Source of the DNA: Amoebophrya sp. A120
Taxonomy: Eukaryota > Protista > Dinoflagellata
Assembly (NCBI GenBank): GCA_905178155.1
Contig: CAJINV010000005.1
Location: 7,934,515 to 7,998,514, forward strand
Direction: 5' to 3'
Length of the DNA stretch: 64,000 nt
A program made the position numbers and the translations under genes. This document shows positions 1-64,000 of this stretch, piece after piece (the first letter of the stretch is position 1; each line of letters begins with the position of its first letter). The notes under the pieces are model-generated. The model searched no databases, was not told where the DNA came from, and was given only the letters and a program-made list of their open reading frames with translations.

Positions 1-203
1 TGTGTTGCGTGATTGCCAAAAGCTGGCCACTTTTGATCAAGTTGGGAGGCAGTTTCTCATGCTGGTGAGGCATGATAGAGGTCGCGCAGAATCTGTCATG
101 CTAGATGAGATTGAGATCTGACAGACCTCAGCCTCACGCGTCATAGAAAACCTGCATGACAAGTCTCGCGACCTTCCAGACCCAGACATATCTGCAGTTC
201 ATA
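1..203. mobile_element. Introner family A, partial (right end only)
   Basis: Ends TTCCAGACCCAGACATATCTGCAGTTCATA. Confidence 0.85.
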
Positions 204-3200
204 ATCTTTCCGTCTGTACATGGTTGGGTTAGTAGTGTAGAACAAGTTTCGGAAGGGATCATTCACCGCTAGCGTGCTGGCACAGAGGAGGGATGACCGT
301 TGCTCCTCTTGCAGCTCCGAAGCGGTGGACGATGAAGACTTAGAACTACTCCTGCACCACTGCAGTGGTTGTCTTCTCTTCTCATACTCTTCGACATCGT
401 CCCTCCTCGACACAACATTCGTCCGCTGGTATTCCAGCGCGTTGAGCCAACTGGTGCGGTTGTTATCGCAAAAAGGGTGTTCTCGGAAGGGCGGGGAGTA
501 ATACGCGTGAGGGAAGGATGAACCCTCTTGCTCAACATTATCACCCTCTTGTTCCTCATTCTCACTTGTCTATCCAAGAAAAAAACATTGTAGGTGTAAC
601 TTTTCTGGAGGAAAAGCATTACAAATTTGTGTGGCATGACAGCAAAAACCTGTCACGCGCAGATAGTACGGGAAAACACCCTTTAATGGACCCTGCGATG
701 CATGCCAAGCATGACAGACGCAATCATCTTGCATGTTGCGCGTCACAAATTTACACTAACAAGGTTTTTTTCTTGGATATTGTCAAATCGAAGTACAGTG
801 CCAGAGACATGGGAGGCGGTTCGTTGTGCTGGACGGAGGTAAGTAGTTCGTAATACGGCGGGCCATATCACTTGCAAAAGTGTCTGGGCCTGGAAACTTG
901 TGATGCTGGGTGGCGATGATTGAACATACTCCTGAGTGCGACCAAGCATGACAAATTTTTCGGACACTTCCTCATGCATAGTGCGCATGAGAAACTGCGC
1001 TTTTGCATGACAAAAGGAGGCTCCTTTTCCTGGTCATGCAATACAGATTTTACAGGAATCCAAGCCACGCAATACAGGTTCCACTTTTCCAGACCCAGAC
1101 ATATTTGCAATGCATACGCCGTAGAAAAGTTTATGCCGCAGGTGCACCATGTCCACTCTCGGTCTGTTTATGCGAGCAGTAGATGTTGTAGTTCTTGCGC
1201 CGCTGTTGCTTGTGCTGCTGGTACTGTCGCTTGATGCCACAGAAGAGGTACTAGCAGCACTCTCCTGTTCGTCGTCGTTTTCATCTTCTGCAAGCAGTTC
1301 CATCGCTTCTTTCAACCTGAATTTCACCAGCGATTTCGGCCTCGAAATGATTTCCCAATCATCCTCTAAGAACAGAATGAACTCCGATCTCGTGCTGCGC
1401 ATCGCGCAGGAGGCAAAGGCCTTCCCGGTTCGCATATACGTGGTACGGGAGATCTTGATATGCGTCTCCGGCCACTTGTAATCGTGGATGGGAAGCTGTT
1501 TTAAATTGTACTTTCTCAAAATGTGCTCGCGCCACTTTAGCTCCGGATTGCGTATTCGTCGGGTAAGTAGTTTTGTGCGCCGCCGAACAGGAGGAGGAAG
1601 AGTACCGGAAGAAAGTTCACCACTTTGATGTTGACCATGGTTTTGTTGCCCTTCTTGATCTCCAGCGGCCTCGCCTGAATTCATTTGCTCCTCTCCTGGT
1701 ACTTCTACACCCTCCGCTGTACTTCTAGTACTTTGCGCGTCCTCTTCTACCTTGGGCTGCTGGTGGCTTGTAGTCTCTTCTGCTGGTTCATCATCTTCTT
1801 CGACCTCGACGTCGTATCCAAGAAAAAAACTGTGTTCGTGTAGGTGTCTTGACGTGACAGCATGACAAATCTGTTCTGCATGACAGACAAAGCCTGTCAT
1901 GCGCAGCTAGTAAGTGAAAACACAAATGAAGTACGACTTCATGGTTGGCTAGCATGACAAGTGTAACAGTGTTGCACACTTTGCATCACAGACTTACACT
2001 TACACAGTTTTTCTCTTGCATACCTCGTATTCCTCGTCCACAAACTCATCCGCATCCTCCAGAAACATCAAGTATTTTTCCCGTGCCATGTATCAAATGT
2101 AAAAACGTCTGGGTCTGGAAACTTGTGATGCTAAAAGTGAACGAGAGTTCCACTGCAATACGGAGCCAAGCATGACAAAATTTTTGGGCTCCTATGTGTT
2201 GCGTGTCCCGCATGGCAAACTGCGTGTTTGCATGACAGAAAAGAGGACCGCTTCGTGCCCATGCATCACAGATTCTTGAGTCATGTCAGACAAGCATGAC
2301 AAATCTCAAAATCTTCCAGACCCAGACACTTTTGCATTTGATACCATGTCCAGAAGCCCCATTTCCTTGTACGTCCGCAAGGTGTGCTCGAACGTTCTCG
2401 CCCCGTTCCCGTACACCATGCAGAGGGAGAGGGAGGAGGTGGATTTTTTGTCGCTATTTGCATCATTCATTTCCGCATCAGAAGTTGTTCTTTCGTTTGT
2501 TTCCTCATCAAGATGATCTTCGGCCTGCTGCGTAGTCGTTCCACTTATTTGTTCCGCGTTTATTTCAGGTGTTGCAGCTTCCGCTTCCGACATTATGTAC
2601 TCTTCATACTTCAACTCCTCCCGTTTTGTCAGCGTGTCTTCCCCGTCACCATACAACAGCCTCTGCCACGCGTTCAGTTTCCGGTACATCCGCTTCACCA
2701 TGTTAGTGAACTATCAAATGCAAATATGTCTGGGTCTGGAAGGTAAGAACTTGTGATGCTAACTATGGACGCTAAAAAAAATTGTATTGCATGACCAGCA
2801 AGAGGAGTCTAGTTTGTGCTACGCGGGGAGGACGTTTGTCATGCGGAGAAGGCATCAGAAAGCCCTCTAAAAATCTGCGATGCTACGTCGTGCATTACAG
2901 ACATCCTGGGTCATGCACAATATGCATGACAAGTCTCGGAATCTCCCAGACCCAGACCTTTTTGCATTTGATATGAACCGCGGGACATCGAAAATAAAGG
3001 GCAGAAACTCGTCCTCTTCGGGAAGATTTATTTCTCGTTCTGATTCGTGACCTCCCGTGTCGACGACCTGGGGCTCCCGAGAAGATGAAGATGGCCGCGT
3101 CGAGGATTCGGATGCAGTATCAACCCCGTGTGAAGATGACTGGTGCTCTACTACTTCGCCTGTGGTCTGCTCCATTCTCTGCTCTCCAGATACATCGACC

Positions 3201-4616
3201 TCTGCTGCAGCGGGCACTTGTGATATTACCGCGGAAGTTGTAGATCCTAACATATTATCGCCGTTCTGTTCCAAGACCTCCCCCAACCCGGTGCTGTCGT
3301 CGTAGTTGGCGGTGCTGGAAGTTGTTTGGTCGTGGTGCTCTTCTCCACCTGAAAAAGATTCTTGTTCTCGTCCGCTTTCAACAACACCGTTCTCGGTCGA
3401 AGATGAAGAACCTGCTCTCCTCGTCGCCGCATGACCATACAGCGCGTCCCAAACCTGCCGGCAGTCCAGCTCGGTGGTGTCCAAAGACTCCACATACTCA
3501 ATAACCGCGGGAGCCCACTCTTTCCACAAGACCAGCCAATTCTGCAAATCGACGTAATTCTGCTCTCCTAGGTCGTGGGCCTCTAATGTGATTTTGGGTG
3601 CTAGATAAGGCAGAAACTTCTTTCACCGAGAAGGCAGAACGTCGGTAAAAGTAGAATGTTGACGTTGAGCAACAGCATGACAAGAGCAGTATCCTTTCCT
3701 TGCAAAACCGCATCACAAAACGGAGGTACAACATGATGAAGATGATCAAAGATCATTTTATACCATAAATGCTCCCGACGATGGTCGCCAGATTTAGGGC
3801 CCCCACCGGACAGGACCTCGCGACATCGTCAAACGTGTGTTCGTTGCGAAAATTTTCCACGAACAATTGCTGTGCGTCCACAAAATGGAAGTCCGCGATT
3901 TTTCGCATACTCCGCCAACAGTGGTAGCCCATCGAGTGGACGTAGTTAGGCCAAAAGATGCGGTTCTGGTCGCATTTGCAGAAATTCTCAACCAAAGGGA
4001 GCAGAAGCCGGGCCTTTTCGGGTAGACGTTCATCTTCTTGCGGGAGCTTCTGTTCATCAGTTGCTGCAACTGCTTCTGAATTATGCTGATCTTCTTCTTG
4101 TTGTGCCGGAGTAGTGTGAACATCCTCGTCTGATGTCGTTATTATTTCATCACCTGGAGGTGGTCGTCGTGGTTCTTCCTGCGCCAACGGTGAGGTCGAA
4201 GTAGTTGTGAAGAGGAGATGTAGTTGAAACATCAGGCAGTAAGACGCTGCAGCCAGTCGCCGGAAACGCCGAAAAGATTTTGTTGCGCGGGAGGGCCTAC
4301 TACTTCTGAGGGGAACTACAACTAAATTTCTTCTGCAGTAGTTGTTCCTCCGCAACTGCGTAAAAATTAGTCGATCAGGTTCTGGGGGTGTCGCTTTAAT
4401 TCGTGTTCGCCGTTTATAATTTCGACGTACGGGAAAGAGATTACCTGAACAGCCGAATGGCGAAAGGTGCGACAAGCTGGCAGAATTTCTTGCTGCTGTT
4501 CTTGGTGTCGGCGAATTGTTCGAAAAATAACCATCGCGTTCCTGTGCTGTCTTCCTCTCGACGCGCGAAGAAATTTCTTCTACGCGGACGGGATCTTCTC
4601 CGCTGCTAGTCTGCAT
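1..4616 (-). CDS. Multi-exon gene, putative GT-A-fold glycosyltransferase (3' end runs off window)
   Basis: ORF pieces 3753-4616, 2867-3547, 2306-2701, 1034-1900 and 141-413. Joins across elements at 866 and 571 were checked and are in frame (YGPPYYELL..LTSENEEQ). Motifs SLCMVYGNG and EFILFLEDDWEII (DxD-like after a hydrophobic strand). Start codon and the intron at about 3623-3760 are uncertain. Confidence 0.6.
571..779. mobile_element. Introner family C
   Basis: TIR TATCCAAGAAAAAAA; flanks TTGTC/TTGTC; removal restores frame. Confidence 0.92.
866..1116. mobile_element. Introner family A
   Basis: TIR ..TGCAAA..TGTCTGGG(T/C)CTGGAA; flanks GGCCA/CGCCG (3/5); removal restores frame. Confidence 0.9.
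1815..2022. mobile_element. Introner family C
   Basis: TIR; flanks CGTCG/CCTCG. Confidence 0.9.
2091..2343. mobile_element. Introner family A
   Basis: TIR; flanks CCATG/CCATG. Confidence 0.93.
2712..2973. mobile_element. Introner family A
   Basis: TIR; flanks TGAAC/TGAAC. Confidence 0.93.
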
Positions 4617-5399
4617 TTTCTCTCCGCTCGGGACGTCGAGAGGAGGGGTGTACTACGAAGGTCGAGGTCCTCGTGCAAGATGAAAGAAACGTCGGTCCTC
4701 TGGAGGTCTAGCACTAGCTCTCCTGCAGCATGAAGATGGTCACTACACTGCCGTCCTACCAAAGCAGAACTCGTCGCTGCGCTGCACTTCTTGTGCAGTT
4801 TTCGCGGAAACACGACCGGAAGATATCGGGTTTAGCAAGGTAATGCAGCGGTCGGCGAGAATTCGACCGGTTGTCGTTTGTCGCTTTTCCTCTTCATCCC
4901 TCACCGTGATGATCCGAACCAATGAAGCCGAGGCTCATTCTCAGATCACCTAACCAACAGTCCTGAACTCCAATGTCTTGAGAAGCGACCACGCCGCTTT
5001 TGTTCTAGATCTAGATACATGCGCGAGGACCCCAGGATCTACATAGAACCGTCATAAAGCAAATCGCCCCTGCTTAAATACAGTCCACCGCCAATAAAGA
5101 AACGCACACTGCTCAGCAGGGCTGCAGGGCTACAGAGACATCGGAAAAGGGACATACACACAAGCACGACACTGACACAAGTGAAAGGGACACCATCTCA
5201 GGCCCCGCGAATGCAAGACCCGGCCCGCCGCACCGACGAAACCGGCCACGTCTTTAGGATAATTCGAAAAAGAAAAAGGCCACCGGCACTGTACTAGACG
5301 AAAGCCCCAGAGTGTCTACCGGAGGGGCAACAGATAGGACCCGACAACGCTACTCATTCTGTGGCCTACGGAGCTGAGCGTGGCTATGTGTGACATATT

Positions 5400-6720
5400 A
5401 GCCTGACGAAAGCACGTCTGAGCGCGCACTGCAACCAATCTCCGCTGCAAGTGCATGGGCAGCTGCGCGGGGCGCCGGAAAATAAAAAGACGGCCGCGAG
5501 CAGAGACACGTGTCGAACTGCGTGCGCCGTTGGTTCGCCCGCCGGCCGGCCGGCCCCCGCCCGCCGCGGTACCGGCGTCGGCGGGCTTCCCGCCCGGAAT
5601 TGCCCCGCGACGGACTTATCAACACTGGGCCAACCGGGCCCCGCCCGTCCAGTGGGTATGGGCGCACGCGCGGCATCCGCGCGGGCTGGGTGCGCACGTC
5701 GGTAGGCAGGGGGGCACACCGGCGGCCCGCCAGCCTGTATCGATTGGTTGGGAAAGGGGCCAGGCGCCTAGCAACGCCGGGCCATTTTACCAAAGAACAC
5801 CGCCGCCGCCGGTAGCCCCGGGGCGCGCGCCGCTCGAAGTCCGAGCGGCGCGCGCCGAGCTTCTCGCCAGAACCGGGCAACGACTGCAGCGCGCTGCTGT
5901 AGTAGCAGCGCGCGCCCGGGTCGTTCTGCAAGCGCGGCACTGCCTGGCCGCCGATGCACTCGGACCGACCCGAAGGCGCAAAGAAAAGGCGGACCTGCGC
6001 CCGGCGGCCTTTGCTTGCCCGCGCGCCGTACTTTGCGCGCAGAAGTGCACTCGTCGCATGCTCTCCCCGCCGGCCATCGGAGAACAGGCGCAGCGGCGCG
6101 GCCGCTGTGGGGTTTTTCCGCTGCAAGCTAGCCGTTCGCGTGGGGGGCGCGCAAGCCGCTGGCTACCAGGCCTGCGGTGGGGCGGATAAAAGCCCCCGGC
6201 TTGCTGGCTGCTCCTCCGTCAGCGGCCACCCACGAAGCAGAGCACTGCAACCACGGGCCAAGAGCGTAGGGCCTCGCGGCGCAAATGCCGGCCAAGAGGT
6301 AAGCCCCGGCCCCTTTCCCTTTCCTGCATGCATTGGGCGGGCGCGCGCCAACCATTGGCCCGGCGTGGGGCTGGCGCACGGAATTGCGCGGCGGGCAGGC
6401 CGGGCCAGCGGCCTCCACCGACGGAGTAGCTGCTTTGGACATGTCCAAAAAGCACTTTCCTCCTCTTTCGTTCTGGTGCCTCCTCTTCCCGCCGCCGCGG
6501 TAACTCCAGGTAGAGCCCTGCCGCTCTAGCGAGATGCGCGCGCCAGCCATTGACTGGCCCGGCGTGGGGCTGGCGCACGGAATTGCGCGGCAGGCCGGGC
6601 CAGCGGCCTCCACCGACCGGCCGCGCTCTCGTCGCCCGGCGCTCCTCGCTATTCAGAACTGGCCATCGGCCCGGCGATTCTTGACCATCATCTGCTTCGC
6701 AGCCACGAGCATGAAGAGCG
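5400..6720. repeat. GC-rich intergenic block with an ~82-bp direct repeat (6341-6422 / 6536-6617)
   Basis: Visibly much more GC-rich than its flanks. Repeat GGCCCGGCGTGGGGCTGGCGCACGGAATTGCGCGGC..GGCCTCCACCGAC occurs twice. Overlapping ORFs in all frames look spurious. Confidence 0.6.
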
Positions 6721-7337
6721 ATGGATTAATTAATTAATTAACTCGGAACACAGAGGAGCTGCTTCGTGCCCCCGATCACCACACAAAGCACGTAGCAAGC
6801 CGTCGCCATCAAATTTGAATTGGCGGAACTGTGTTATTCGACAGAAGCCATTCTGATTTCAACTCGATGAAGCGAGCAACCTTTCCTTTCTTCGCAACTT
6901 CTTCATCTCGTCCACATGAGCGTTCTTGTAATGGATTAGTAGTTACATTGTCCTCCTTCCAGAAATCAACTGATCGCCGCCAAGATTCCACGACCTCTGT
7001 CTATTTTTTTACAGAGTTCTTGAATCTTCAGTGTAGTCGGTTTTTTTTTTGCTCTATCTCCTTTGCCCGCCACCATCCACCGCTAATTTTTCCAATGTTG
7101 CTACTTACAGCTCGTCCCTGCTGCGCGCGTCATCTTCCAAACTAACACTTCGCCACCTGAGACCGGCTTCGACGACAACTCTTCATTACTGCGCAGAACT
7201 TCGCGTTTTTTCCGTGAAGTTGTTGTCACAATGGTGGATGAAGAAGTGAAGGCTACGTACAACCTGGCGTCTTGTCGACATCTACAACGCGTCAAATGGT
7301 CAAGGTATACCCCGACTTCCACAAAAACAGGATCATC

Positions 7338-10300
7338 TCACCCGGCGATCATCGCTACTATGTAGAGCAAAAAGGCCCCGCACATTCCCGCTATCACCAT
7401 CTTCAACTTCATATTTCTCCACTGGATGGCCCTGCGCAGGTCGACGGACTGGTGTTTATTTTGGAGGGATGATTGTATGTTGTTATGCAAGAAAAAAACT
7501 GTGTTAGTGTAAATCTGTGATGCACAACTACATGCATCAGAGTTACGCCTGTCATGCCAGACAACCATGAAGTACTTACTCTTTTCACGTGTGTTCCCCC
7601 TTACGAGCCGCGCATGACAGGCTTTCTCTGTCATGTAGAGCAAATTTGTGATGCTGTCAACCAAAGAAAGTTACACTAACACAATTTTGTTCTTGGATAG
7701 TTGTGAGTTGTTGTGTACTATCCACATGTGGCCATGCGGCGCATGACAAAGTTCAGGACAACTCGGTGTACTTCCTTCTGCGTCCACTAGTATGTTGCAT
7801 CTAATCAAAATTCCTATACCTGCTTCAGAAACTGGTCCGCCTGCCTGCTCATGTTGTCTGTCCTCTGCTCCAAATTCTCCAGGTTGTGATGTGTTTCTAA
7901 AATTCTCCGCACATTGTCCTGCATGTTCTCCTTCAACTCTTCTACTTTTCCCTGCATATCCTGAGGAAAACCGTCCCCACTCGTCGCTGTCCAGAGTCAC
8001 TGAAAGACTGGAAACTTAGCAACACAAAGACAAATTCAGTAGAAGTTTTGGGCGTCACACATGACAAGTTGCTGTCTGTTGTGTACTAGCGCAGCTTCGC
8101 AAGGCCAAACGCATCACAAATCCGTCTGCTCATCCCGTTATACAGAATTACAAATTCCAACACACGCATAGAATTGGAATTGCCTCTCTTCATGGGGATC
8201 ATGCGCATTACAAACGTTCCTGCGATTACAAAACTGCATGACAACTATGGGGTCGTCGTGAGGACGTTTTTACATTAGGATACTGCACCTCAAATATACA
8301 GAAAAAAAACTAGGCAAGTGTAAACTTTGTAGGAAGAGCAGCATCACAAATTCGTTTTGCATTACAGGGAAAATCTGTCATGCGCAGCTAGTACGTAGAA
8401 ACACGCATGAAAGTAGCCTGTGAGGCAGATCTAGCATGCCAAGTATAACAGTTTTGCATTTCCTGCATCACAGACTTACACTCACATAGATTTTTTCTTG
8501 CATATCAAAAGTTTTGTCCCGGTCCGCGAGCTGGTAGCGCTTGATGATCTCCTATCCTGAACAAAAACATCCCCACCTCATAACCAAGTATGGTAAATGT
8601 GCAACACAAATGTCCAAGTTTTGGGAGTTGCGCATGACAAGTTTCGATCTCAATTGTAGTGCTGGTTAGCTGCCCTCCGCATGATGAGAGAGCCAGGCTC
8701 TGATCCTGTTTACAGTATTACAGATTCCAAAACACGTCGATTTGCAATGCCTCTCATGGAGATACGCATTACAACTGTTCAGTTCCTGTCAATGTCATTG
8801 CGCATTTGCATGACAACTCCGGGGTGGGGACGTTTTTGTTGAGGATATCTCCCGAACCGGCTTCTTCAGCGGCTTGGTCAGTGAGAGCGAGGATAGATGG
8901 TGCAGGGAATCGCCCTGAGGTAGTTTTTTGTGCGATTTTCATTTCTGCATGAGAAATAATTGCGACATGGCTCCTGCATCCTGATATCCTAGAAGCAGGA
9001 GGCCTACGATCATCTATAAACACCTGCTCGTCGGCGGTGTCCTGGAGGTCCTGAGTTTCGACATCAGAATGATCAAGATCAGAACTCATTGTCATAATCC
9101 CGTATGATCTACAAATCAAACCGCGTGATGTTGAGATAAAAACCGTACTTACTACTATTAAGTAACACATACCTGCGTGACGTGCACCCGTTCCAAAACT
9201 TCGTTTAAGCACGCGTACGCCAGTATCAAATGCAAATATGTCTGGGTCTGGAAGGTTGGAAGACTTGTCATGCACGTTTTGCATGAGCGATGATGCTTGT
9301 GATGCATGCCCTAGCATCACAATTTTTTTCGGGGCTTTTTGATGCCTATTCCGCATAACAAATGCCTCTTCGCATGGCAAAAATTGCACTCCCTTTGCTG
9401 CTCATGCAATACAGTTTTTTTTGGAATCCAAATGCAGCATCACAAGTTGCATTCTTCTAGACCCAGACATATTTGCACTTGATAGCCAGCCGCTCCGGGT
9501 ACCCGGCGTCCCGAATCCCTATTGCGTACAAGCAATGACTATGCATAGCAAATAGGTGTCTGCGTCTGGAAATAAGCCCGAGCTTGTCGTGCTTGTCTGG
9601 CAAGCCTGGAAAATGAAAATCTGTATTTTTGCATGATCGAGAAATATAACAACTGCAGCTTCTCGAAAATGCAAGAAAAATTGTCATGCTTATTTGCGGC
9701 ACGACTTCCAACTCCTGTTGCAATCCTTCACAAGAACTCCGCGTCACAAATTTCCAGACCCAGGGAAAAACCAATTTGCCATGCGTAATGGCTGGAAACC
9801 CCGTTACCCGCCATGACAAACATGTTTCCCTGGCACGGGTACTCGAGAATCACCCGGGTTTTGAACTCCGCATTTGTTATATCCTCAGTAAAAACGTCCC
9901 CACACCAGAGTTGTCATGCGAATGCGCAATGACAGGAACACTTGTAATGCGCAGCTCCATGAGAAGAATTTCCAATCGTGGTGGTAATGCTGTAAACAGG
10001 ATGTGAAAGCGGCTTTCTCATGCGGCTTCTCTCGCCAATCAGCACAACACTGCAGAGGAAAACTTGTCATGCACAGCTTCCAAAGCTTGAAGATTTGTGT
10101 TGCTAGATTCCCAACTTGACCATGCTGGCATGGGGACGTTGTTACAAATGATATGTTATGCCCCGTTGCTGCTGGCAGGACTGGAGAAATTGCCGCTCAA
10201 ACTGTTGCTTTTCTTGGGACGCGATTTTACCTGTGAGGATACAATGAAAGTAGATTGCGATTTATTCTTTGGTCGATTACGTAATGTGTTCGTGCTTGAA

Positions 10301-10810
10301 GTTTTATTTCGCAATACTGAAGTGGTTATATATACAAATCTGCAGTGGTAGACAAAGCAAATTGCACACGAGGCTCCACATCCTGTTCCTGCATTTCCAA
10401 ATGCAAATTCCCATTCGTGCAATAAAAAGTACGGCAAGAAACAAAATCTATACTGTCAACGAAAATTGACGCCAGCAAAGCCCCATCGGTGACGCGGGCT
10501 AGGTATCAAATGCAAATGTGTCCGGGTCTGAAAACTTGTGATGCGAGAATGTGGATGATGGAATAATCAGTTCCGAATGCAACCCAGCATGACCACTTTC
10601 CAGAACGCTTTCTCATAGGAAACCCGCATGGAAAACTGCGTTTTTACATGCACAAAAGAGGCTGCGACTTTTGTTGGTTATAATGCAAGACAGATTTTCT
10701 AAGGTATGAAAAGCTAGCATTACAAGTCTCAACCTCCCAGACCCAGACATATTTGCAATCCGTACCAGGCCCACAAACACTATTCGCTCGTCCACAGAAA
10801 CGATCGCCAT
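7338..10810 (-). CDS. Longin-domain R-SNARE (VAMP7-like synaptobrevin), 11 exons
   Basis: Exons 10765-10810, 10454-10503, 10154-10230, 9788-9879, 9485-9539, 9173-9223, 8848-8914, 8505-8552, 8283-8294, 7820-7956, 7338-7448 join in frame. Longin-like MAIVSVDERIVFVGLARVTDGALLAS..YPERLAYACL; SNARE motif VQGKVEELKENMQDNVRRILETHHNLENLEQRTDNMSRQADQFLKQSVDLRRAIQWRNMKLK; C-terminal TM. GT-AG introns at 7449-7819, 8915-9172 and 10231-10453. Confidence 0.9.
7484..7699. mobile_element. Introner family C inside a GT-AG intron
   Basis: TIR; flanks GTTGT/GTTGT; lies within intron 7449-7819. Confidence 0.9.
7957..8282. mobile_element. Introner family B
   Basis: TIR TATCCTGAG.AAAA.CGTCCCCAC; flanks CTGCA/CTGCA. 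Confidence 0.9.
8295..8504. mobile_element. Introner family C
   Basis: TIR; flanks TCAAA/TCAAA. Confidence 0.9.
8553..8847. mobile_element. Introner family B
   Basis: TIR; flanks TCTCC/TCTCC. Confidence 0.92.
9224..9484. mobile_element. Introner family A
   Basis: TIR; flanks GCCAG/GCCAG. Confidence 0.93.
9540..9787. mobile_element. Introner family A, degenerate
   Basis: Eroded TIR; flanks ATGAC/ATGGC; removal restores frame. Confidence 0.8.
9880..10153. mobile_element. Introner family B
   Basis: TIR; flanks TGTTA/TGTTA. Confidence 0.9.
10504..10764. mobile_element. Introner family A
   Basis: TIR; flanks CTAGG/CCAGG. Confidence 0.9.
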
Positions 10811-12793: not shown

Positions 12794-13026
12794 CAAAATT
12801 CCTATACCTGCTTCAGAAACTGGTCCGCCTGCCTGCTCATGTTGTCTGTCCTCTGCTCCAAATTCTCCAGGTTGTGATGCGTTTCTAAAATTCTCCGCAC
12901 ATTGTCCTGCATGTTCTCCTTTAACTCTTCTACTTTTCCCTGCATATCCTGAGTAAAACCGTCCCCACTCGTGGTCCAGAGTCACTGACACACTGGGATG
13001 AACTTAGCAACACAAATTCAGTAGAA
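12794..13026 (-). pseudogene. Duplicated fragment of the VAMP7-like gene (SNARE exon plus one end of the adjacent introner)
   Basis: Near-identical to 7806-8044; flanked by a 32-bp direct repeat at 12747-12778 and 13035-13066. Confidence 0.88.
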
Positions 13027-41590: not shown

Positions 41591-41837
41591 TATGGATTGT
41601 AAAAGTGTCTGGGTCTGGAAACTTGTAATGCAAGTGAATGATAGACGCACTGCAATACGCAGCTATGCATGACAATAATTTGGCTGCCATGTCTTACGTA
41701 TTCCGCATGGCAAGCTGCCTTTTTGCATGACAGGTAAGAGGACTTTTTCGTGCCTATGCAACACAGATTCTCGAGTCATGACAGACAAGCATGACAAACT
41801 TGCATTCTTCCAGACCCAGACATTTTTACATTTGATA
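41591..41837. mobile_element. Introner family A outside any recognised CDS
   Basis: TIR; flanks ATTTA/ATTTC. Confidence 0.9.
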
Positions 41838-55800: not shown

Positions 55801-58800
55801 ATGCATAAACGCAATTAGTACGAGTACGATACTTTTGCACATGATAAATTGTTGCGACGAGATGAAGAAGTTGTTCGAAACTTGACTCATCGGGAACGCT
55901 TAACTTATCAGGAGGAAAAAGGTCCCCACCCCAGCTTGTTATGCAAATCTGCATGCCAAAAAAGTTTCTCACGCGAAGCCCCATGAGAAACATTTTCTAG
56001 TCGTGTTGTGGAGTTTTCGCGTCTATAACCAGCGCGATATGCTAGATCTGTGATGCTGCTGCGCAGTACCTCAACAGGATTACACTACGAGGACAGACTT
56101 GTCATGCGAAACAACCAAGGCTGGTTGATTTGTCTAGCAGATTTTCCATCTTGACTCTGGTGTGGAGACGTTTTTACTCGGGTTATGACTCGACTGCGTT
56201 TCTTGCTGGAGGTGCTCGGGAAACTCCACTCCAGGCTTGTATTTCTCCATCAGTTCAGCTTCCTTCGCTTTGAACGTCTTCGCTAACCCTAGCACCTCGT
56301 CCAAGTTGGCGAAGGGAAACAGCTTATCCTGTGCAAAAGTATCGCACTCGTATTGCGATCATGCATTACAATTTTTTTTCTGAAAGCAAATCCCCATTAC
56401 AAATTTAATTTCTCATGCTGAGGAAATTTGTAATGCATTTATACGAATACGATACTTTTGCAATTCATAGAGCTTCTTCGATTTTGCCCGTTTGGCGCCC
56501 TCCGAAACGACTTTCTCTTGCAGGTACCTGAAGTATAGTTTTTGGAAAACGAAAACTTAACTTGTCATGCCGACCACTGGAACGCATGGCAGGTAACTAC
56601 TCTACTAGACTACCTTCGCGAATGCAATTGCAATTCAATATGCGTTACAGCAACATCGAAAGACAAACGAAGCCGCCATTTTTCTATACCATTCCCGAAA
56701 CGCGTAGTACTTGGTGCAGGTGTGGTACCACAACTGCTCGCATTTCCGATCCGAAAACAGGGCCGTAAATTCTTCCTGACTGCAATTCGCCTGGGTCCAC
56801 GGGGCGGTTGTGATGCCGGCCTTCTATGCATTGCAAATATGTCTGAGTCTGGAACGAATAATGCAAGATTTCTTATGCTCGGCAAGCATGAGACTCTGAA
56901 GCTTGCCATGCTCGTCACCCAAAAATATCACGCTTCCGTCATGCAAGAGCGCGCTTTGTCATGCAAAATAGACAACACGTAGCACGACCTCAGAAACTTG
57001 TCATGCTGCACAGTCAGTTGTGTCGCTAACCAGCATCACAAGTTTCCAGATGACCCAGTAGAGGACCTATTTGCATTTGATACCTTCTCCAACCAGTCAA
57101 ATTTCATGTCGAAATCGCGGTCCCAGTCTATCGCAAGAAAAAATAAGTGTTACAGTTACACATTGTCATGCAAGACTGGCAACAGAGACAACCTTTCTCA
57201 TGCAGGAAATGCTTCGGAGTCTCGTTTCCTTCCTGTTTTGTTTCCCTTATGATCTTCGCATTACAAGTTTTTTCTGCCACACAGAGAAAATTTGTGATGC
57301 AGAAACTCCAACAAAATTGTAAGTGTAAGTAACACTTTTTTCTCGTGATACAGTAGAACGGGCGATTAATGTTGCGTTTCAAGGGCGCGCCTGTAATTTG
57401 AATTTCTGATGTGTTGACAATAATTTTGCAAGACAATAAATCATCTATGCACGTCCCCACCTCTAGCATCTCTAAGTGCATCATTTGCAAGGCAAATCAG
57501 TCATTGAAATTTATCCAAATTCTAGTACCGCCAAACCCCGCGTCCTCCTCCAATTCTTGACTCATGGCGGGAAAGCAAATTTGCGCGACGCTGGCGTCGA
57601 TGTAGTTTTCCCAGGAGGGAAGAGTTGCCCAGGCGTTTCCCATTTCCTCTATGCATTGCAAATATGTGTGGACACGCCTGGAAGATAAAACTTGTGATGC
57701 TGCTTAGTTTGTGAATTGTGGGAAGATAGACCACACTGCAAGACGCAGCCACGCACGACAACGACAAGTTATTCCTGGGCCCTCCTGTCCGTCATGTTTC
57801 GCTTCCCGCATGGCAAACTGCGCTTTTGCATGACAGGCAAGAAGAGGCTCGTGATTTTTTTTCTGCTCACGCATTACAGCTTCAAGATCAAGAGTCATGT
57901 GAGACAAGCATGACAGACTTGCACTCTACTTCCAGATGCCCCAGACATCATATTCACAGTGGGTATCCTCAAACACGGTGGTATCCAGATCGTTCTGCAT
58001 GCACTGGAAAAAGTCGGCCATTGTGTTCTTGTCGCAAAAGGACAAAGTTTTCAGCTTCGCGAGCAACTCCCCGGTGAGGCGCCCCTTCTCAAACTGCTCT
58101 TCCAGGAACTGGAGGGCGAAGCTGTAGTAGTTTTGACAGGGTTCATTAGGTCGTGGTTATGCATGACAAACTGCATTACCCGAGCGGAACACGCATCACA
58201 GTATTAAATTTCAAGCAGTACAAGTAAATGAAAATAGCAAAAATACTATACTTCTTGAAGCACAGGCACTCCATAAACGCAACCGACTTCTTATCTCGCT
58301 GTCCCTCCTTCGGCATCTGCGGGTACAGTTGCTTCTCCAGAAAGTCCTCGTCGAGCTCCGACTCCGTCTCCAACATGCTCTTGCTAGTATAGAAGAGTAG
58401 AAAAAGCAGTTGAAAATGTTTTGTCATATGCATGAAATCAACCCATGTAAAAATCAACGATCTCTATTTTGATTTCAACCTGACATCACAGTTCTTTCTA
58501 CGGCACAGAGCAGCAACTTGCGCCGGGAATCAATCGAGAAAAAACAAAGTTATACGATTATGCGTGCAACCTGCACAGTCGCAAAGTTTCGTAACTGTGC
58601 GTGATGGCTGTAAATGATGTAACACTTTCATTACGTCTTTTCTTTTATCTAGCCCCGCTAAATTATAAAACCTTTTCGCAACATCTTTCAAAATATTCAC
58701 AATCATGCAACAACTTTTTCTTCCATTCATACAGCATCACAGCGGTCAAATCTCCATTCGTCGCGATGTCCTCGTTCACCTCGCGCTTCAAAATTCCCCA

Positions 58801-58962
58801 CGGCGCGCTTAGGAACCAGAACTTCTTCTTCCAGTCGATGTTGGCGACGTCGAATTTTTCATCGATGTACTTCTGTTTCTCTGCATCCGTGTGCGGCTCC
58901 TTGTTGGCGGTCCCGGGGACCGCGGTCGTCCGGGGGTCACCGGGGTGTAAGACTTCCGACAT
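43827..58962 (-). CDS. Very large multi-exon protein with low-complexity centre and C-terminal PHD finger plus PWWP-like domain (putative chromatin reader)
   Basis: Long exons ~49782-51453, 52854-54294 and 54446-55250. PHD-type CSCC..LMICDNKKCGKAIHAGC..YYCGEC. PWWP-like LGDVVFVKL..FPKLCPAVVV..YEVAYLL..CSW..DLVGF. The 3' end (43827 versus ~44560) and single-gene continuity were not fully verified. Confidence 0.65.
43867..44180. mobile_element. Introner family A, diverged
   Basis: Eroded TIR; flanks GCTTG/GCTTA. Confidence 0.8.
44624..44902. mobile_element. Introner family B
   Basis: TIR; flanks TTTTC/TTTTC. Confidence 0.92.
44982..45243. mobile_element. Introner family A
   Basis: TIR; flanks AGGGT/TGGGT. 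Confidence 0.92.
45729..46072. mobile_element. Introner family E
   Basis: TIR; flanks GCTTC/GCTTC. Confidence 0.87.
46132..46399. mobile_element. Introner family A
   Basis: TIR; flanks TGAGT/TGAGT. Confidence 0.93.
46437..46686. mobile_element. Introner family A
   Basis: TIR; flanks AAGGG/AAGGG. Confidence 0.93.
46770..47073. mobile_element. Introner family K (single copy in window)
   Basis: TIR TATTACAATGAA.AATGCC; flanks GGCTC/GGCCC. Confidence 0.87.
47268..47417. mobile_element. Introner family D
   Basis: TIR; flanks CCCTT/CACTT. Confidence 0.9.
47529..47807. mobile_element. Introner family B
   Basis: TIR; flanks CCGGA/CCGGA. Confidence 0.92.
47893..48149. mobile_element. Introner family A
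   Basis: TIR; flanks GACGC/GACGC. Confidence 0.92.
48237..48394. mobile_element. Introner family D
   Basis: TIR; flanks CCATC/CCATC. Confidence 0.9.
48477..48696. mobile_element. Introner family H
   Basis: TIR TATCACGAGAAAAAAGTC..TTACAGTTACAC; flanks GTCGT/GTCGT. Confidence 0.9.
49027..49251. mobile_element. Introner family I
   Basis: TIR TATGACAG.GCAC..TCTCCCCCTCC; flanks AGTGT/AATCT (3/5); removal plus 5 nt restores frame (SAD|SLQ). Confidence 0.8.
49294..49562. mobile_element. Introner family A
   Basis: TIR; flanks GTCGA/GTCGA. Confidence 0.93.
49628..49781. mobile_element. Introner family D
   Basis: TIR; flanks ACCGG/ACCAG. Confidence 0.88.
51454..51732. mobile_element. Introner family B
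   Basis: TIR; flanks AATCC/AATCC; close reverse-complement copy of 31525-31803. Confidence 0.94.
51780..52038. mobile_element. Introner family A
   Basis: TIR; flanks TACTG/TGCTG. Confidence 0.9.
52601..52853. mobile_element. Introner family A
   Basis: TIR; flanks GCACC/GCACC. Confidence 0.92.
54295..54445. mobile_element. Introner family D
   Basis: TIR; flanks TTCCA/TTCCA. Confidence 0.9.
55251..55516. mobile_element. Introner family B
   Basis: TIR; flanks AGTCG/AATCG. Confidence 0.9.
55698..55846. mobile_element. Introner family D
   Basis: TIR; flanks AATTG/AATTG. Confidence 0.92.
55906..56185. mobile_element. Introner family B
   Basis: TIR (right end GTTA); flanks TAACT/TGACT. Confidence 0.87.
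56325..56469. mobile_element. Introner family D
   Basis: TIR; flanks CAGCT/GAGCT. Confidence 0.9.
56825..57082. mobile_element. Introner family A, diverged
   Basis: TIR; flanks CCTTC/CCTTC. Confidence 0.87.
57129..57350. mobile_element. Introner family H
   Basis: TIR; flanks CAGTC/CAGTA. Confidence 0.88.
57650..57965. mobile_element. Introner family A, diverged
   Basis: Eroded TIR; flanks TCCTC/TCCTC. Confidence 0.82.
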
Positions 58963-59945
58963 GGAGGTTTTGATGCGAACTTGGCTGTTCAATCGGGGAA
59001 GATTGAACGGCGAAATTCACGACTTTCGAAGATATATTCCGAGCGGAAATTACTTCGTGTAGTTTTTCTTCTTTGATTTCGTCGTTTTCTCCCACAACGA
59101 GCTAATAAAGATGTTTTGGGATTGGAGTTTTTTCTAGATGGGACGCAGATTGTTCGCTAGTACTTTTCTCAAACTGAGTCGAGAAAAGCGCGAAGTCTTT
59201 TAAATTCCTGGTGAGACGGTCGTGTTTGTTTGATTGAGATTTCAATGACGTATTACCTGTGTCACTTTTGCTCAATTTGCCACATTTGCCCTTGAAGAAA
59301 CGAAGGAACAACTACACTTCAAGCTGGAAGCCAAGAAAAAATCATCTCTCTTTTGCACTCGGTGGACCAACAGTTTTTGTTTTGTTTACGGAGAAACCGG
59401 AGGTAGGATTACTTAAACCCGTTTGGCTAGGACTCAAGACACTCGTGCCGTTTTGAACCGTCGCTCAGAAGATCAAAGAACAAACAGAACCGAAGCACAG
59501 TAGTTGTCCTGCTACTGCAGGAAGGAGAACAAAAAACGCACTTTGATACGCACAAAAAATCGGCCCGATATTATTATCAGTCGGTAGCTTTCTTCGAAAT
59601 AGGTACTTCTCAGCGAAAAATTTCAAGGTGAGACTACGGGTGCTGTGTCTGTGAAAAATCTCGGCTGTACTACTAGCAGTCCAAATGCCTTCTTAAAGTC
59701 CGCCGTACGAGCACATTCTCAACATTTTGTTTCGCTTTTGAAAAAATGCTGTGGTCTTGAAAATGAGGAGCATCAGCATGCATGCTCGCCTTCGATTGCC
59801 TAGAGGAAGACCAGAAAGTTGTGTTTAACAATCTCTAGTACTATGGCTCGGCTGCTGCTGTTAGTTACAGGGTTCAAAAGCACAGCGTTGTTCTACAAAC
59901 TGGGGGAAAAAAGAAATTCCACTTCTCTTATCACCCTATCAGTAC

Positions 59946-62900
59946 TCAGTCCGCCTGCTTTCCTCCATTTTTCGACACCGCCCGGCTGTGGTCCCGCTTA
60001 TTGTTGTTCCCCTCCATAATATCCTCGTCTTCTTTGTCAAGACCTACTTCTTTCCGCCCGCCTCCAGTAGAATCCTTCGATTTCTCATTTGATTTTTCCG
60101 ATTCATTCGTATCAACTGCAAAAATGTCTGGGTCTGGAAGAATCGAACTCGTAATGCTGTCTGCGGATTCTATAAAATATCTGTGTTGCCTGAGCAGCAT
60201 GAGGAGTCAGTCTTGGGCACGCGGAGAAGGCATTTCTCGTGCGTAATTAGCATCAATCAAGAAGCTCCACTCAAAAAACCTGTTGTGCTAGCACCAGCAT
60301 CACAGACCTCAGTGGTGATGCGAAATGTGCATGACAAGCCCCGACTCTTCCAGACCCAGACACATTTGCAATGGATAATTCGGGCTGGCGACCAAATCTC
60401 CAAGCGCATCGTCCTCGCCAAATTGCTCTGCCATCAGCCGGTTCAAACGCTCCTCTTCGTCATCCTCGTCGGCCTGGATTAGAATTGTGAAGCAAATTAT
60501 GCATGAGCATGTGCATGACAGAGTCCGAAGTAAAATTTAGAAATGTTTCTCATGCATAGCTCGCTACGCTAGTCTCATCTGTGATCCGCGAGAAAATGAA
60601 AATGGAAATGCAAATGCAGCTGGTGCAAACGCAAAGCAATAAACTCTATACCTCCATTTCCTTCATCTCCCGCAGTTCTTCAAATCCTTTCGCATCGTAT
60701 CCTTTGACTTTCCAGAGAAACTCCAAGAAATCCTTGCTCCAATCTTCCTTCACCTCGTCCTGTTCGTCGCCCTCCTCGACATACGGTAGTTGATAATTGC
60801 TCATCGCGTTGTTGACGAACCGGTCCTCAAAAGACTTCTTGTCCCGCTCCACCAAGGTTTCAAACATGTACTCCTGCGTGAACAACCTCTTCAGCTGCCA
60901 CATAAACACTGTATCGTACTTGTTCATGTACTCTTCTTCCAAACCGCTCTCTCCCGTCTCGTCCATTTTCAAAATTTCCGTGAACTGCTCAATCGACTTC
61001 AATTCGTGCGTCTTCCGCTTGTAATCCAGAAAATGCTTCGACCGCTTCTGCACCCGCTTGTTCTGCTTCTGCTTCTTCAATTTCCTCTTCCGCTTCTTCT
61101 CTTTCTTCAACTCCTGCAGCGATCTCCGGTGCTTTTCGCGGAAGGCAGTAACCGTCGTGACTTCGTCGATGATCATTTTCTATCAACTGCAAATATCCCT
61201 GGATGTCTGGGAAGTTGCGAGATTTGTCATCCTAGTCTGGCATGACTCTGAACTCTGTGTTGCGTCACCGCAAAGAGCTTCTTTCGCCTGTCATGCAAAA
61301 ACGCAGTTTCTCATGCGGCGTACGCAACGTAGAACCGTGGAAAAACTTGTCATGCTTGGCAGCGCATTACAGTGTGTTTTCACTATTCCCGTCCTTGCAT
61401 CACAAGATTCCAGACCCAGACATTTTTGCATTTGATATCTTCCCGGTGCCGTTCTGCGAGTCGTTGCTGAACCGCTTATTTGATGTCGTGTGGTCCTCAT
61501 TCCCCGAAGAAACGCCGGAGTGGCCGTTCATCAAGGTGCTACTTCCCCCTCCATGATGTCCATTCACCATGGGCTGCGGATCCGTCTCCCCTCCCTCATC
61601 CTCGCTGGAGCTCAGACTGTCCGAATCTTCACTATCACCGAAGCTGTACTCCCCGACAGAGCTGTCTAGGTCGCTCAAGCTGCTCTTATAACTCGCTCAG
61701 GTGGTACAATCACAGAGGCTGAATTAGACTTGTCTTCCATAGTGAGCATGACAGACTCGCAGAGCATTCGACTTTCTGCAATACAAATTTTGCCAGATCG
61801 TAGCGCGGTTTGGGACAACTCCGGTACTTGTCATGCGTAATTTTATGCCAGTTGGCTAGATAGTGCACTTCTTGCATCACAGATTTCCATATTCTAGTGT
61901 AACGTTTGAGATTGTATTAACACTTGGGCGGGTCATAGCTGTCCAAATCTTCATCTTCCGAGTTTTCGGAAGACCGGAGGGGATTGTTGTTTCTGATGAA
62001 ATCGTTGTTCATTTGTTCCTCGTCCATATTAACATGGTTCTCACCGTCGTCGTCGTCGTCATCCCCCGCCGAGCTGCTCATGGCCTCCAGCATATTGTTG
62101 TGGTGGTCCATTTGATCATTTTGAAGATTACTATGCGGGCCCAATAAGTTGTTTGTCCCTTTAATATTTTTCCGTTTCTCTGTGCTGCCCCCGATGTTGA
62201 AGCCGGCATCTATCCTGAGTAAAAACGTCCCCACACCAGAGGCAAGATGGGGATTTCGCAACACAAACCTAGAAGCTTTGGGAGTCACGCATGACAAGTT
62301 GCACTCCGTAGTGCAGTGCAGGATAGCAAGCGCAGCCGCATCACAGATTCATCTGCTTATCCTGTTCATAGCATCACAAATTCCACAACACGTTTGGAAA
62401 TGTTTACCATAGGTATGCGCATCACAAATGTCCTTGCCATTGCAAATCTGCATGACAACTCTGGGGTGGGGACGTTTTTCCTCAGGATAGCCTCGTCCAG
62501 CTCGTCATCCGAGTCCGATAATTCAGAAATTTCGTCGGTGTTATCGCAAGAAAAAATTGTTTCACTGTAAACCTGTGATGCATAAAAATGGAACACAGAA
62601 ATATTTGTCTTGCTACACATGCAAGAAAGTGGATTTTTAGCTGTGTTTTCCCTTCGGAAGCTTGCATGGCAAATTGGATCTGTCATGTAGAGCAAACCTG
62701 TGATGCAAAACCTGCAAAATCCTTACAGTGAAACGCTTTTTTCGTACGATAGGTGTCGACGTCGCTGTACTCTGAAAAGGTGTCCTGCTCTTTCTTGTCT
62801 GTCGCACCGCCTCCTGCTCCGGGGGAGAGATGACCGAGTGCAGCAGCAGCATTTGCAGCTCCTGAGGATCCTGGTCCACCTCCAGCTGCTACAAGTTGTG

Positions 62901-64000
62901 AAAATGCAACACCGGAGTCCTGAAACGTTTTCACCATCAGCCCGGTTGCCGTGTTTTGCACTAAGCCCGTAGTTGTATGATCCGCGGCTGCTGCGTTGGT
63001 CGCTTGCTATGCACTGCAAATATGTCAGGGTCTGGACGATTGCCAGGTTTGTCATGCATATTTTGCATGGCCCATGATACCTGTCACGCATGGCCTAGCA
63101 TCACAGATTTTTGGAGGGCTCCCTGTTGCCTATTCCGCATGAGAAATGCCCTCTTCACGTGAGACAAACGCGACCCCTGCTCTTGCTAGTCATGCACGAC
63201 AGATTTTTTTGGAATTCAAAGACAGCATCACAAGTTGTGACCTTCCAGACCCAGACTACGTATTTGCATTTGATACTTGCTCCGCTGGTTTGAATCCGTT
63301 TTCCACCAGCCACTTGTCGTGCGACTGTTTCCAGGAGTCGAGACTCTGGATGAGCTGCGGCTTGCTGGGATCGGCGTCCAACTCTTTGACTAACTCTTCC
63401 CCGACTTCATCCTGCCACTTGCTGTAGAAATCAAGCTTCTTCTTCTTCTTTTTCGTGGGTACTAAGGAAGCTGTAATTTTTTGCCCAGCAGCAGCTTTGG
63501 AGGTCGTGGCAGCTTTATCTGCTGCTGTTCCGTCGGCCGTGGTCGTGACAGAAGATTTATTTATTTTCCCCGCCACCACCGAAAGCGCGACCTCTTCTTC
63601 CGCTTCCAGTTTCGGAAACAATTTTTTGTCACACACCGCGCCCATTACCGGGTCGCAGGTGCTGCCCCGCTTCCAACTGGTCAAAAATAACTCCGTGTTG
63701 AAATCTTTCAGCACCAGTACTCGCGCGAAGTTGGGGTCCACCGTGGACATAATGGCAACGCACTTTCGCTTCAGCTCCACGATTCCCTGTGAGACCTTTG
63801 TATCAAATGCAAAAGCATCGTACTCGTAGTAATCGCAGTCATGCACCATTACAAATTTTTTTCTTAACAAGGTCAATCCCCATGACAAATTTCATTTCTC
63901 ATGCTGAGGAAATTTGTCATGCATTTATACGAACACGATACTTTTGCAGTTCATACTTTGCCTGCTTGGACGATTTCTGGCCCATATTCGTGGGAAAATT
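59946..64000 (-). CDS. Multi-exon hypothetical protein with acidic and basic low-complexity tracts (5' end off window)
   Basis: ORF pieces 63256-63888, 62683-62961, 61917-62297, 61400-61678, 60646-61176 and 59946-60200 separated by seven elements and one GT-AG intron (~60474-60651). No recognisable domain. Confidence 0.7.
60110..60377. mobile_element. Introner family A
   Basis: TIR; flanks ATTCG/ATTCG. Confidence 0.93.
61181..61437. mobile_element. Introner family A
   Basis: TIR; flanks TTTTC/TCTTC. Confidence 0.88.
61687..61937. mobile_element. Introner family G
   Basis: TIR TATAACTCGCTCAGGTG/CACTTGGGCGGGTCATA; flanks GCTCT/GCTGT. Confidence 0.87.
62211..62489. mobile_element. Introner family B
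   Basis: TIR; flanks GCATC/GCCTC. Confidence 0.93.
62542..62751. mobile_element. Introner family C (variant)
   Basis: TIR; flanks GGTGT/GGTGT; opposite orientation to the 26541 copy. Confidence 0.9.
63008..63275. mobile_element. Introner family A
   Basis: TIR; flanks CTTGC/CTTGC. Confidence 0.92.
63801..63955. mobile_element. Introner family D
   Basis: TIR; flanks CTTTG/CTTTG. Confidence 0.9.

What the first reader, a model, noticed from the sequence alone, without database searches (positions are those of the whole stretch)
1..63955. About 85 TAT...ATA MITE-like elements in 10+ families act as non-GT-AG introns under one shared rule
Seen: the families have different TIRs and characteristic sizes (D ~145-160, C/H ~210-220, A ~245-275, B mode 279, F ~306, E ~315-365 bp). 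Almost all share TAT...ATA termini and a 5-bp TSD of free sequence. Removing the element plus 5 nt restores conserved proteins (VAMP7-like, channel, PHD) at nearly all junctions checked. Established (from memory): inverted-repeat introner elements were reported in Amoebophrya, so the class is not new, but to my knowledge the splicing and mobilising machinery is unresolved. Inference: one transposase type and one splicing rule serve all families. TAY..RTA termini recall IS3EU transposons, although I recall a 6-bp TSD for those.
Basis: partly seen in the sequence, partly recalled or inferred. Interest (0 to 1): 0.85.

Follow-up and report, generated by a model that had tools for sequence, protein, structure and literature searches.

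The report
Transposon introns cut at fixed offset
A third of this stretch of a marine parasite's genome is made of about 85 small transposon-like hairpins, already described in Amoebophrya, that are cut out of the RNA together with 5 extra letters, likely at one fixed offset from the hairpin and likely by a loosened spliceosome, which would make a still unsolved splicing mechanism directly testable.

Summary
The window holds 81 complete TAT..ATA elements plus 4 decayed or partial ones, with a 5-bp target duplication (TSD). They match the introner elements of Amoebophrya A120 (PMC7789003); one spliced gene model equals a protein named A120, 684 of 684 residues.

An mRNA-derived contig skips element+5 nt at 14 of 15 listed joints; the other is GT-AG. 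A DNA run keeps the elements.

Added here: TSD mismatches leave one cut common to all 14 joints, 1 nt before TAT and 4 nt after ATA. A prediction written beforehand held at one more junction. The intron thus reads N-U-A-U, in register with this genome's GUA donors. The first U is altered in 1 oriented element against 10 for its mirror position.

This favours a relaxed major spliceosome over a separate nuclease, but the machine is untested. A branch A at -7 fits 10 of 10 canonical introns in the window but only 4 of 27 predicted elsewhere. No transposase was found; IS3EU membership fails on TSD length.

The parts
1..203 (.). Right part of a family A element cut by the window edge
   Evidence: blastn to catalogue; strong end score
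571..2973 (-). Five element introns (571-779, 866-1116, 1815-2022, 2091-2343, 2712-2973) in a minus-strand gene (about 144-4616)
   Evidence: 757-aa frame after removal; P0004 identical over 603 of 603 residues across four of them; at 571-779 P0004 skips 258 nt instead, but three distant homologues continue in the element+5 frame
866..1116 (-). Informative element: TSD copies differ at transcript positions 1 and 5; a cut at -1 gives Pro, a cut at 0 gives Ala
   Evidence: prediction noted; Pro in P0004 and in homologues P0006, P0007, P0008, Gln in P0009, P0010, Ala in none shown
7484..10764 (-). Eight elements in and beside a VAMP7-like gene; 7-nt micro-exon between 7957-8282 and 8295-8504
   Evidence: Synaptobrevin PF00957 E 2.9e-09 on exon 7817-7951
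12945..13026 (.). Half of a family B element inside a 92% copy of the VAMP7-like exon
13883..16583 (-). Five elements; 14527-14790 (family A) sits inside the terminal repeat of a decayed family B element (about 14197-14800)
19453..20656 (-). Three elements in a small gene; 20365-20656 has no recognisable TSD (1 of 5)
23782..32115 (-). 22 catalogued elements plus decayed 25299-25642 in an ion-channel gene; 29720-29982 lies inside a GT-AG intron (29559-29989); 8-nt micro-exon at 30363-30370
   Evidence: model with 22 element introns and one GT-AG intron equals P0001, 684 of 684; orthologues P0002, P0003 align across the junctions; Ion_trans PF00520
35222..35483 (.). Family A element outside any confident coding frame
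38534..39806 (-). Three elements in a 326-aa frame
41591..41837 (.). Family A element outside any confident coding frame
43867..44180 (-). Element intron; the loose end of an RNA contig at 44181 continues with the sequence left of the TSD
   Evidence: table 7, read against the flanks
44624..57965 (-). 25 element introns of one long gene (open frame of 2,468 aa) covered by RNA contig X1 record 1
   Evidence: 14 joints listed as element+5, two more from piece ends; the model reproduces the contig length 7,576 and 17 of 17 piece boundaries
44982..45243 (-). Informative element: RNA keeps the downstream copy's fifth TSD letter, so the cut is at -1 or further upstream
   Evidence: joint 44977-45245, 4 letters fit either side; DNA contig 45221-45862 without differences
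47268..47417 (-). Informative element: cut at 0 or -1
   Evidence: joint 47262-47418, 1 letter fits either side
49027..49251 (-). Element with only 3 of 5 TSD letters alike, still removed as element+5; cut at 0 or -1
   Evidence: joint 49021-49252
60110..63955 (-). Seven elements of a further gene
   Evidence: 634-aa frame with six junctions; RNA piece ends at 60104, 61174, 63276, 63795
3583..60651 (-). Ten GT-AG introns in the same genes: 3583-3763, 22180-22319, 29559-29989, 44244-44585, 45444-45610, 56528-56689, 57391-57528, 58122-58251, 58384-58732, 60474-60651; all start GTA and have A at -7
   Evidence: the first is printed one base off; one search has it right

Best explanation
These are non-coding, transposon-like elements that sit in the genomic DNA and are removed from the mRNA together with five target-duplication letters, likely at one fixed offset (1 nt before TAT, 4 nt after ATA) and likely by a major spliceosome that no longer needs G at +1 or AG at the end. 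Shown: insertion anatomy, retention in DNA, exact removal in RNA, both orientations, several families. Inferred: the terminal repeats pair into a hairpin that defines the intron; the 5' end is read as N-U-A-U in the register of the GUA donors; the 3' cut is measured from the hairpin end rather than guided by the repeat. Because the removed length equals element plus TSD, any insertion is silent. Inferred and untested: one cut-and-paste transposase type (integrase-like or hAT-like) mobilised all families through shared ends and a shared subterminal motif.
For: RNA removal: 14 of 15 listed joints are element+5 (9 more not shown); the full model matches the 7,576-nt contig. DNA retention: 8 listed DNA contigs run from exon into element ends without differences. 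Offset: allowed cuts of the 14 joints intersect only at -1; lower limit also from piece ends at 51780, 55251, 61181; upper limit also from 866-1116. Spliceosome-like reading: 10 of 10 supported GT-AG introns start GTA; in loci, AT-rich predicted introns with GTA donors end in CAG 21 of 29 times against 11 of 32 for other donors (p 0.005); first T altered 0 times at the 5' end and 10 times at the 3' end in 364 oriented elements, 1 vs 10 with a dropped counter-example added (p 0.012). Ruler, not repeat: 49027-49251 is spliced exactly with 3 of 5 TSD letters. Intron definition: micro-exons of 7 and 8 nt; median folding z -6.2, 70 of 81 below -3. Nearly all spliceosome proteins and U2, U4, U5, U6 are reported in A120 (PMC7789003).
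Against: No single junction fixes the cut from both sides; -1 holds only if the rule is uniform, and the upper limit rests on one RNA joint and one protein junction. All RNA joints come from one contig of one run. Only 10 of 364 elements are GT-AG in this register, +1 shows no G excess (103 of 364) and the last two letters are free, which no textbook spliceosome tolerates. U1 was not found in A120. G-U against A-C mismatches in the arms, 219 vs 180 (p 0.057) and 168 vs 140 (p 0.12), give no clear sign of selection on RNA pairing. The branch-A idea did not replicate: 4 of 27 and 21 of 71 predicted GT-AG introns in loci, at background; two elements in L004 have G at -7. L004:1359-1507 has C at +2, and element+5 removal gives a stop in one of three frames, the reading frame there being uncertain. 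No transposase was found.
Confidence: 0.6

Rival explanations
1. A separate, spliceosome-independent pathway (structure-measuring endonuclease plus RNA ligase) cuts the hairpin at the same fixed offset, as proposed for Euglena nonconventional introns.
For: Free +1 and free last four letters; orientation-blind splicing; strong hairpins; a longer 3' than 5' overhang as in the Euglena code N3CDG..CHGN5-6|R (PMC12501133); U1 not found in A120.
Against: End changes follow sequence, not pairing: +2 U is kept while its partner varies, and +4 U changes to C, breaking the pair, more often than -7 A changes. The N-U-A-U start coincides with the GUA donor. The Euglena signature is absent.
Confidence: 0.3
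2. The cut floats within the 5-bp repeat (repeat-guided), with no fixed offset; -1 is only an intersection of different cuts.
For: Most joints are ambiguous by 3-6 letters; PMC7789003 (Fig. 3 and S23 legends) calls the splice position variable, 1-5 nt from the repeat.
Against: Seven informative junctions are all compatible with -1 and none excludes it; an element with 3 of 5 TSD letters is still removed exactly. The published variability is what aligner ambiguity in a direct repeat would give (inference).
Confidence: 0.2
3. The elements are excised from DNA (like TA-bounded ciliate IESs) or are alleles absent from the expressed copy.
For: TA-bounded ends; X1 is labelled RNA only by a guess.
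Against: The X1 contig also lacks GT-AG introns, so it is mRNA-derived; DNA run X6 keeps exon-element junctions and a GT-AG intron; none of the 15 listed joints (2,968 not shown) is an element+5 skip.
Confidence: 0.03
4. Families were spread by several unrelated transposases or by an RNA route, and look alike only because splicing filters for TAT..ATA and a 5-bp TSD.
For: Interiors of most families are unalignable; PMC7789003 found no transposase in A120; PMC12130899 assigns A120 introners to several classes; the shared motif also occurs in GT-AG introns (5 of 7).
Against: All families share position-specific ends and an inverted subterminal layout of one motif; a 5-bp duplication of free sequence is a staggered-cut signature (established knowledge).
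Confidence: 0.25

Closest known systems
Amoebophrya A120 introner elements (Farhat et al. 2021, PMC7789003)
   Same: TAT start, seven looser letters, A run; inverted repeats; 3-5-nt direct repeats (5 bp in Fig. S19 legend); non-GT-AG; MITE comparison; same host proteins (P0001, P0004 named A120)
   Different: Nothing in kind. Not seen in the text read: one uniform 5-bp TSD, a fixed -1/+4 cut, the end asymmetry, the shared subterminal motif. The paper calls the border variable or unknown; its figures could not be seen.
A120 family 38 (Gozashti et al. 2025, PMC12130899)
   Same: 5-bp TSD, TA/TA termini, TIR DNA element
   Different: About 808 bp with ORFs resembling LTR-element proteins, labelled Ginger in the supplement; the window's elements are 145-401 bp and non-coding; relation not tested.
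IS3EU / GingerRoot DNA transposons (PMC10045372, PMC6839031, PMC12730594)
   Same: TA..TA (TAY..RTA) ends, TIRs
   Different: TSD usually 6 bp, here 5; no transposase linked; not known as introns in the passages read.
hAT5 (named in PMC12730594)
   Same: 5-bp TSD; subterminal repeats are typical of hAT (recalled)
   Different: No hAT transposase found; hAT5 termini not compared.
Euglena nonconventional introns (PMC12501133, PMC11282704)
   Same: MITE-like, hairpin joins the ends, free boundary letters, spacers of set length
   Different: Signature CDG..CHG with 3 and 5-6 spacer letters and a purine after the 3' cut; here UAU..AUA with 1 and 4; circles reported there, unknown here.
Fritillaria non-canonical introns (PMC13326754, PMC11282704)
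   Same: Transposon-derived non-GT-AG introns beside canonical ones; the precedent for a relaxed major spliceosome
   Different: There preferred ends remain (AG-AC, AG-AT) and U1 is present; here the first and last letters are free.

Membership tests
Amoebophrya A120 introner elements | IR starts TAT, seven looser letters, at least three A | tested here: met
   position tables; family consensus ends, (small families F and G lack the A run)
Amoebophrya A120 introner elements | 3-5-nt direct repeat at the borders | tested here: met
   5 bp
Amoebophrya A120 introner elements | removed from RNA at non-GT-AG borders | tested here: met
Amoebophrya A120 introner elements | repeated families without internal transposase | tested here: met
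   lengths 112-457 bp; no Pfam hit in 13 ORFs of three longer copies
Amoebophrya A120 introner elements | host genes of that organism | tested here: met
   P0001 684 of 684; P0004 603 of 603
IS3EU/GingerRoot | TA..TA termini | tested here: met
   definition from PMC10045372
IS3EU/GingerRoot | 6-bp TSD | tested here: not met
   identity 0.29 at length 6, 0.91 at length 5
IS3EU/GingerRoot | autonomous partner with integrase-like DDE transposase | tested here: inconclusive
   no hit in 88 of 106 long ORFs from about 0.55 Mb; no whole genome held
hAT5 | 5-bp TSD | tested here: met
   definition from PMC12730594
hAT5 | hAT transposase partner | tested here: inconclusive
   none; small sample
Major (U2) spliceosomal intron | GT/GC at +1,+2 | tested here: not met
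   +2 U nearly fixed, +1 free: A 112, G 103, C 75, T 74 of 364
Major (U2) spliceosomal intron | AG at the 3' end | tested here: not met
   34 of 364
Major (U2) spliceosomal intron | branch adenosine and lariat | not testable with these tools
   sequence hint only: A at -7 in 10 of 10 window GT-AG introns, 4 of 27 predicted in loci
Major (U2) spliceosomal intron | dependence on snRNPs | not testable with these tools
   needs experiment
Euglena nonconventional intron | N3CDG..CHGN5-6|R code | tested here: not met
   against PMC12501133
Euglena nonconventional intron | hairpin joining the ends | tested here: met
   predicted only: terminal pair probability 0.66-0.74
Euglena nonconventional intron | excised as full-length circle | not testable with these tools
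   contigs cannot show it
Ciliate-type IES (DNA excision) | absent from the expressed DNA | tested here: not met
   DNA contigs keep the junctions

The most novel reading that the evidence does not exclude
Amoebophrya runs a splicing route that ignores GT-AG altogether: it recognises a transposon-end hairpin, cuts 1 nt before and 4 nt after it, and so erases exactly one 5-bp target duplication for any family in either orientation. The machine is either a U1-less spliceosome that branches at the A of the terminal AUA and counts to the 3' cut, or an undescribed nuclease-ligase convergent with Euglena. It would serve tens of thousands of introns and license unlimited transposon insertion into exons.
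Probability: 0.45. Interest if true: 0.85.

Novelty: already known. Interest (0 to 1): 0.52.

Why it matters
The elements are published, but how more than 60% of this organism's introns are removed is an open question (PMC7789003). A fixed offset turns 'no clear splicing signature' into a precise rule: intron = N + UAU...AUA + NNNN. That predicts where a lariat branch or a circle junction must lie, tells which snRNA contacts (+2 U, +3 A, +4 U) to test, lets gene models be corrected (one annotated junction here seems misplaced), and explains why insertions into exons are tolerated at about 1.3 per kb. TSD mismatches offer a cheap genome-wide test with existing RNA-seq.

Tried and rejected
Raw RNA run X10 had no exon cover (145 reads, on family A ends only): uninformative. 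Laying DNA run X6 beside RNA swamped the joint table. Two homologue searches were sent in a wrong frame and found nothing. Pfam on 12 long exons gave no hit. No whole genome and no searchable records behind the loci were held, so the search for an autonomous element was limited to fetched DNA: three longer family A copies with TSDs (481, 631, 834 bp) carry no coding hit, and 88 long ORFs held no transposase; this covers about 0.5% of a genome and is weak. Rfam found nothing in the window. TSD base bias (G at position 4, p 0.045; C depletion at position 5, p 0.013; 20 tests) is not convincing. Strand-biased words inside elements: none beyond multiple testing. A first gene parse with free donors was too noisy for a consensus. 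Branch A at -7 as a rule shared with canonical introns: not replicated in loci. GT-AG sliding as an explanation: only 20 such placements among 364 elements. Earlier findings of this scan: none returned.
Full report
Observation. End-agnostic and TAY..RTA scans and blastn gave 80 complete elements; RNA added 49027-49251. With two decayed and two partial copies the count is 85. Shuffles give 0 to 0.4 comparable pairs. The direct repeat is 5 bp and no other length. Nine multi-copy families and 13 singletons appear at one threshold; each larger family occurs in both orientations to the gene without significant bias. The genes that carry elements all read on the minus strand.

Identity. The channel exon 29065-29367 matched P0001 at 100%, named Amoebophrya sp. 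A120 by its source. A model with 22 element introns and one GT-AG intron equals P0001 at 684 of 684 residues, and orthologues P0002 and P0003 align across the junctions only for +5. Farhat et al. 2021 (PMC7789003; read: abstract, sections 10-12, passages of discussion and methods, supplement legends; figures not seen) describe these elements: IRs starting TAT, 3-5-nt repeats, 29,850 copies in A120, U1 not found, no transposase in A120, splice position called variable or unknown. Gozashti et al. 2025 (PMC12130899; passages and supplement 8 parts 15-17 of 33; files 13-14 not searched) list one 808-bp A120 family with '5-bp TSD, TA/TA termini', labelled Ginger. The class is therefore known.

RNA versus DNA. 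Run X1 (contigs, RNA by guess) holds a 7,576-nt record. Of 15 listed joints (9 not shown) 14 skip exactly element+5 and one is GT-AG; two more follow from piece ends. A model with 25 element introns and six GT-AG introns reproduces the record length and all 17 piece boundaries, 10 directly and 7 within the repeat overlap, with an open frame of 2,468 aa. Run X6 gives flat exon depth and contigs that run from exon into element ends and through a GT-AG intron. The elements are introns, not DNA deletions.

The cut. Where the two TSD copies differ, the RNA tells which copy is kept. At 47268-47417 and 49027-49251 the cut is at 0 or -1 relative to TAT; at 44982-45243 it is at -1 or further upstream; the 14 ranges share only -1. 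Piece ends at 51780, 55251 and 61181 agree with the lower limit. For 866-1116 I noted beforehand that -1 gives Pro and 0 gives Ala. The annotated protein P0004 and three homologues have Pro, two have Gln; P0004 is an annotation of the same genome, so only the homologues are independent. The intron is thus N + UAU...AUA + four letters, if the rule is uniform; no one junction proves it alone. One annotated junction (571-779) departs from the rule, but homologues follow the element+5 frame.

Larger sample. A pattern scan of metagenome contigs returned loci L001-L164 (about 0.55 Mb without overlaps) with the same families, best matches up to 96%. A detector blind to the first three letters found 327 strong elements, 633 of 654 ends being TAT. 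I oriented 283 of them by a coding model (64 of 81 right per single junction in the window, 130 of 138 neighbours agree), after dropping two false boundaries and those with weak scores. With the window's 81: the first T is altered 0 times at the 5' end and 10 times at the 3' end; the third letter 9 and 2 times; the second 2 and 3 times. Adding the dropped cases L004:1359-1507 and L032:13360-13560 gives 1 vs 10 (p 0.012) and 10 vs 2 (p 0.039). Loci alone give 0 vs 6 and 4 vs 2. Position +1 and the last four letters are free; 10 of 364 are GT-AG in this register. Elements fold strongly, yet wobble pairs exceed A-C mismatches only slightly.

Canonical introns. Ten supported GT-AG introns in the window all start GTA, five of them GTAT, and all have A at -7, the place of the first A of the element's AUA; internal AG controls have 34 of 96. 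I had named -7 before looking. In loci, predicted and unverified GT-AG introns show A at -7 in only 4 of 27 best and 21 of 71 cases, at background. The branch idea is unresolved; the GTA donor is supported.

Mobilisation. A motif GCAT(G/C/T)ACA occurs in 355 of 364 elements at 12.5 per kb against 0.58 per kb in the rest of the window, inverted near both ends, although most family interiors do not align. It also occurs in 5 of 7 GT-AG introns checked with a slightly wider pattern and is rare in coding DNA (0.14 per kb), so it may be a transposase site, a general non-coding mark, or a trace of old elements. No transposase appeared in 101 ORFs. IS3EU/GingerRoot share TA..TA but make 6-bp TSDs (PMC10045372, PMC6839031, PMC12730594; passages); hAT5 shares the 5-bp TSD. 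Neither is shown.

Mechanism. My estimates: intron status 0.97; fixed -1/+4 offset 0.8; relaxed major spliceosome 0.6 against 0.3 for a separate nuclease-ligase; one transposase type 0.65. Precedents are Fritillaria for a loosened spliceosome (PMC13326754, abstract and first part of discussion; PMC11282704, passages) and Euglena for a hairpin code with unknown machinery (PMC12501133, abstract and discussion). Another Amoebophrya has U1 and mostly GT-AG introns (PMC12005148, passages).

Novelty. Searches and the passages of PMC9860276 and PMC11453091 showed no statement of a fixed offset. Figures 3, S19 and S23 of PMC7789003, the unread rest of the 2025 supplement and the dinoflagellate introner preprint 10.1101/2020.10.14.339549 (listing only) could contain it. 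Verdict: known elements, with a likely new and testable splicing rule; interest 0.52.

Noticed in passing
window 14197-14800: A family A element (14527-14790) is inserted in the terminal repeat of a decayed family B element; if the outer one is still an intron the two must be removed in order.
   Followed up: partly
window 29559-29989: Element 29720-29982 lies inside a GT-AG intron, 7 nt after the donor.
   Followed up: partly
window 12794-13026: 92% copy of 7806-8044 (VAMP7-like exon plus half an element): a gene fragment duplication.
   Followed up: partly
window 22111-22448: Sm/LSM-domain gene (PF01423, E 2.9e-11; SmF-like by recall), a spliceosome part, with a GT-AG intron and no catalogued element.
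   Followed up: partly
window 8283-8294 and 30362-30374: Micro-exons of 7 and 8 nt between neighbouring elements; many exons between elements are 30-90 nt.
   Followed up: partly
window 571-779: The public protein P0004 skips 258 nt here and stops early; homologues follow the element+5 frame, so the annotation seems misplaced or shows a minor isoform.
   Followed up: yes
window 20365-20656: Family B element with intact ends but no TSD (1 of 5); removal of element+5 keeps the frame open.
   Followed up: partly
L004:1359-1507: The only oriented element with C at intron +2 has G at +1, i.e. a GC donor; the reading frame across it is uncertain.
   Followed up: partly
L017, L034, L053 (predicted introns): Predicted GT-AG introns that begin like an element end preceded by G and carry the internal motif: possible hybrids or decayed elements; unverified.
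   Followed up: partly
L030:632-1465, L062:571-1051, L063:3862-4492: Family A elements of 834, 481 and 631 bp with perfect TSDs that carry unrelated inserts, without Pfam hits.
   Followed up: partly
window 5400-6700, 32400-33800, 40000-41100: GC-rich or repeated stretches between genes; 32436-33769 holds tandem-like copies around the N gap (33440-33555), and 33933-34394 resembles L037:44-172.
   Followed up: no
window 45195-45233 and 46366-46400: Raw RNA run X10 has reads on family A ends joined to other flanks but none on exons: perhaps a related strain sharing the family.
   Followed up: no
L019:635-4090: Two long exons with C-5 DNA methylase domains.
   Followed up: no
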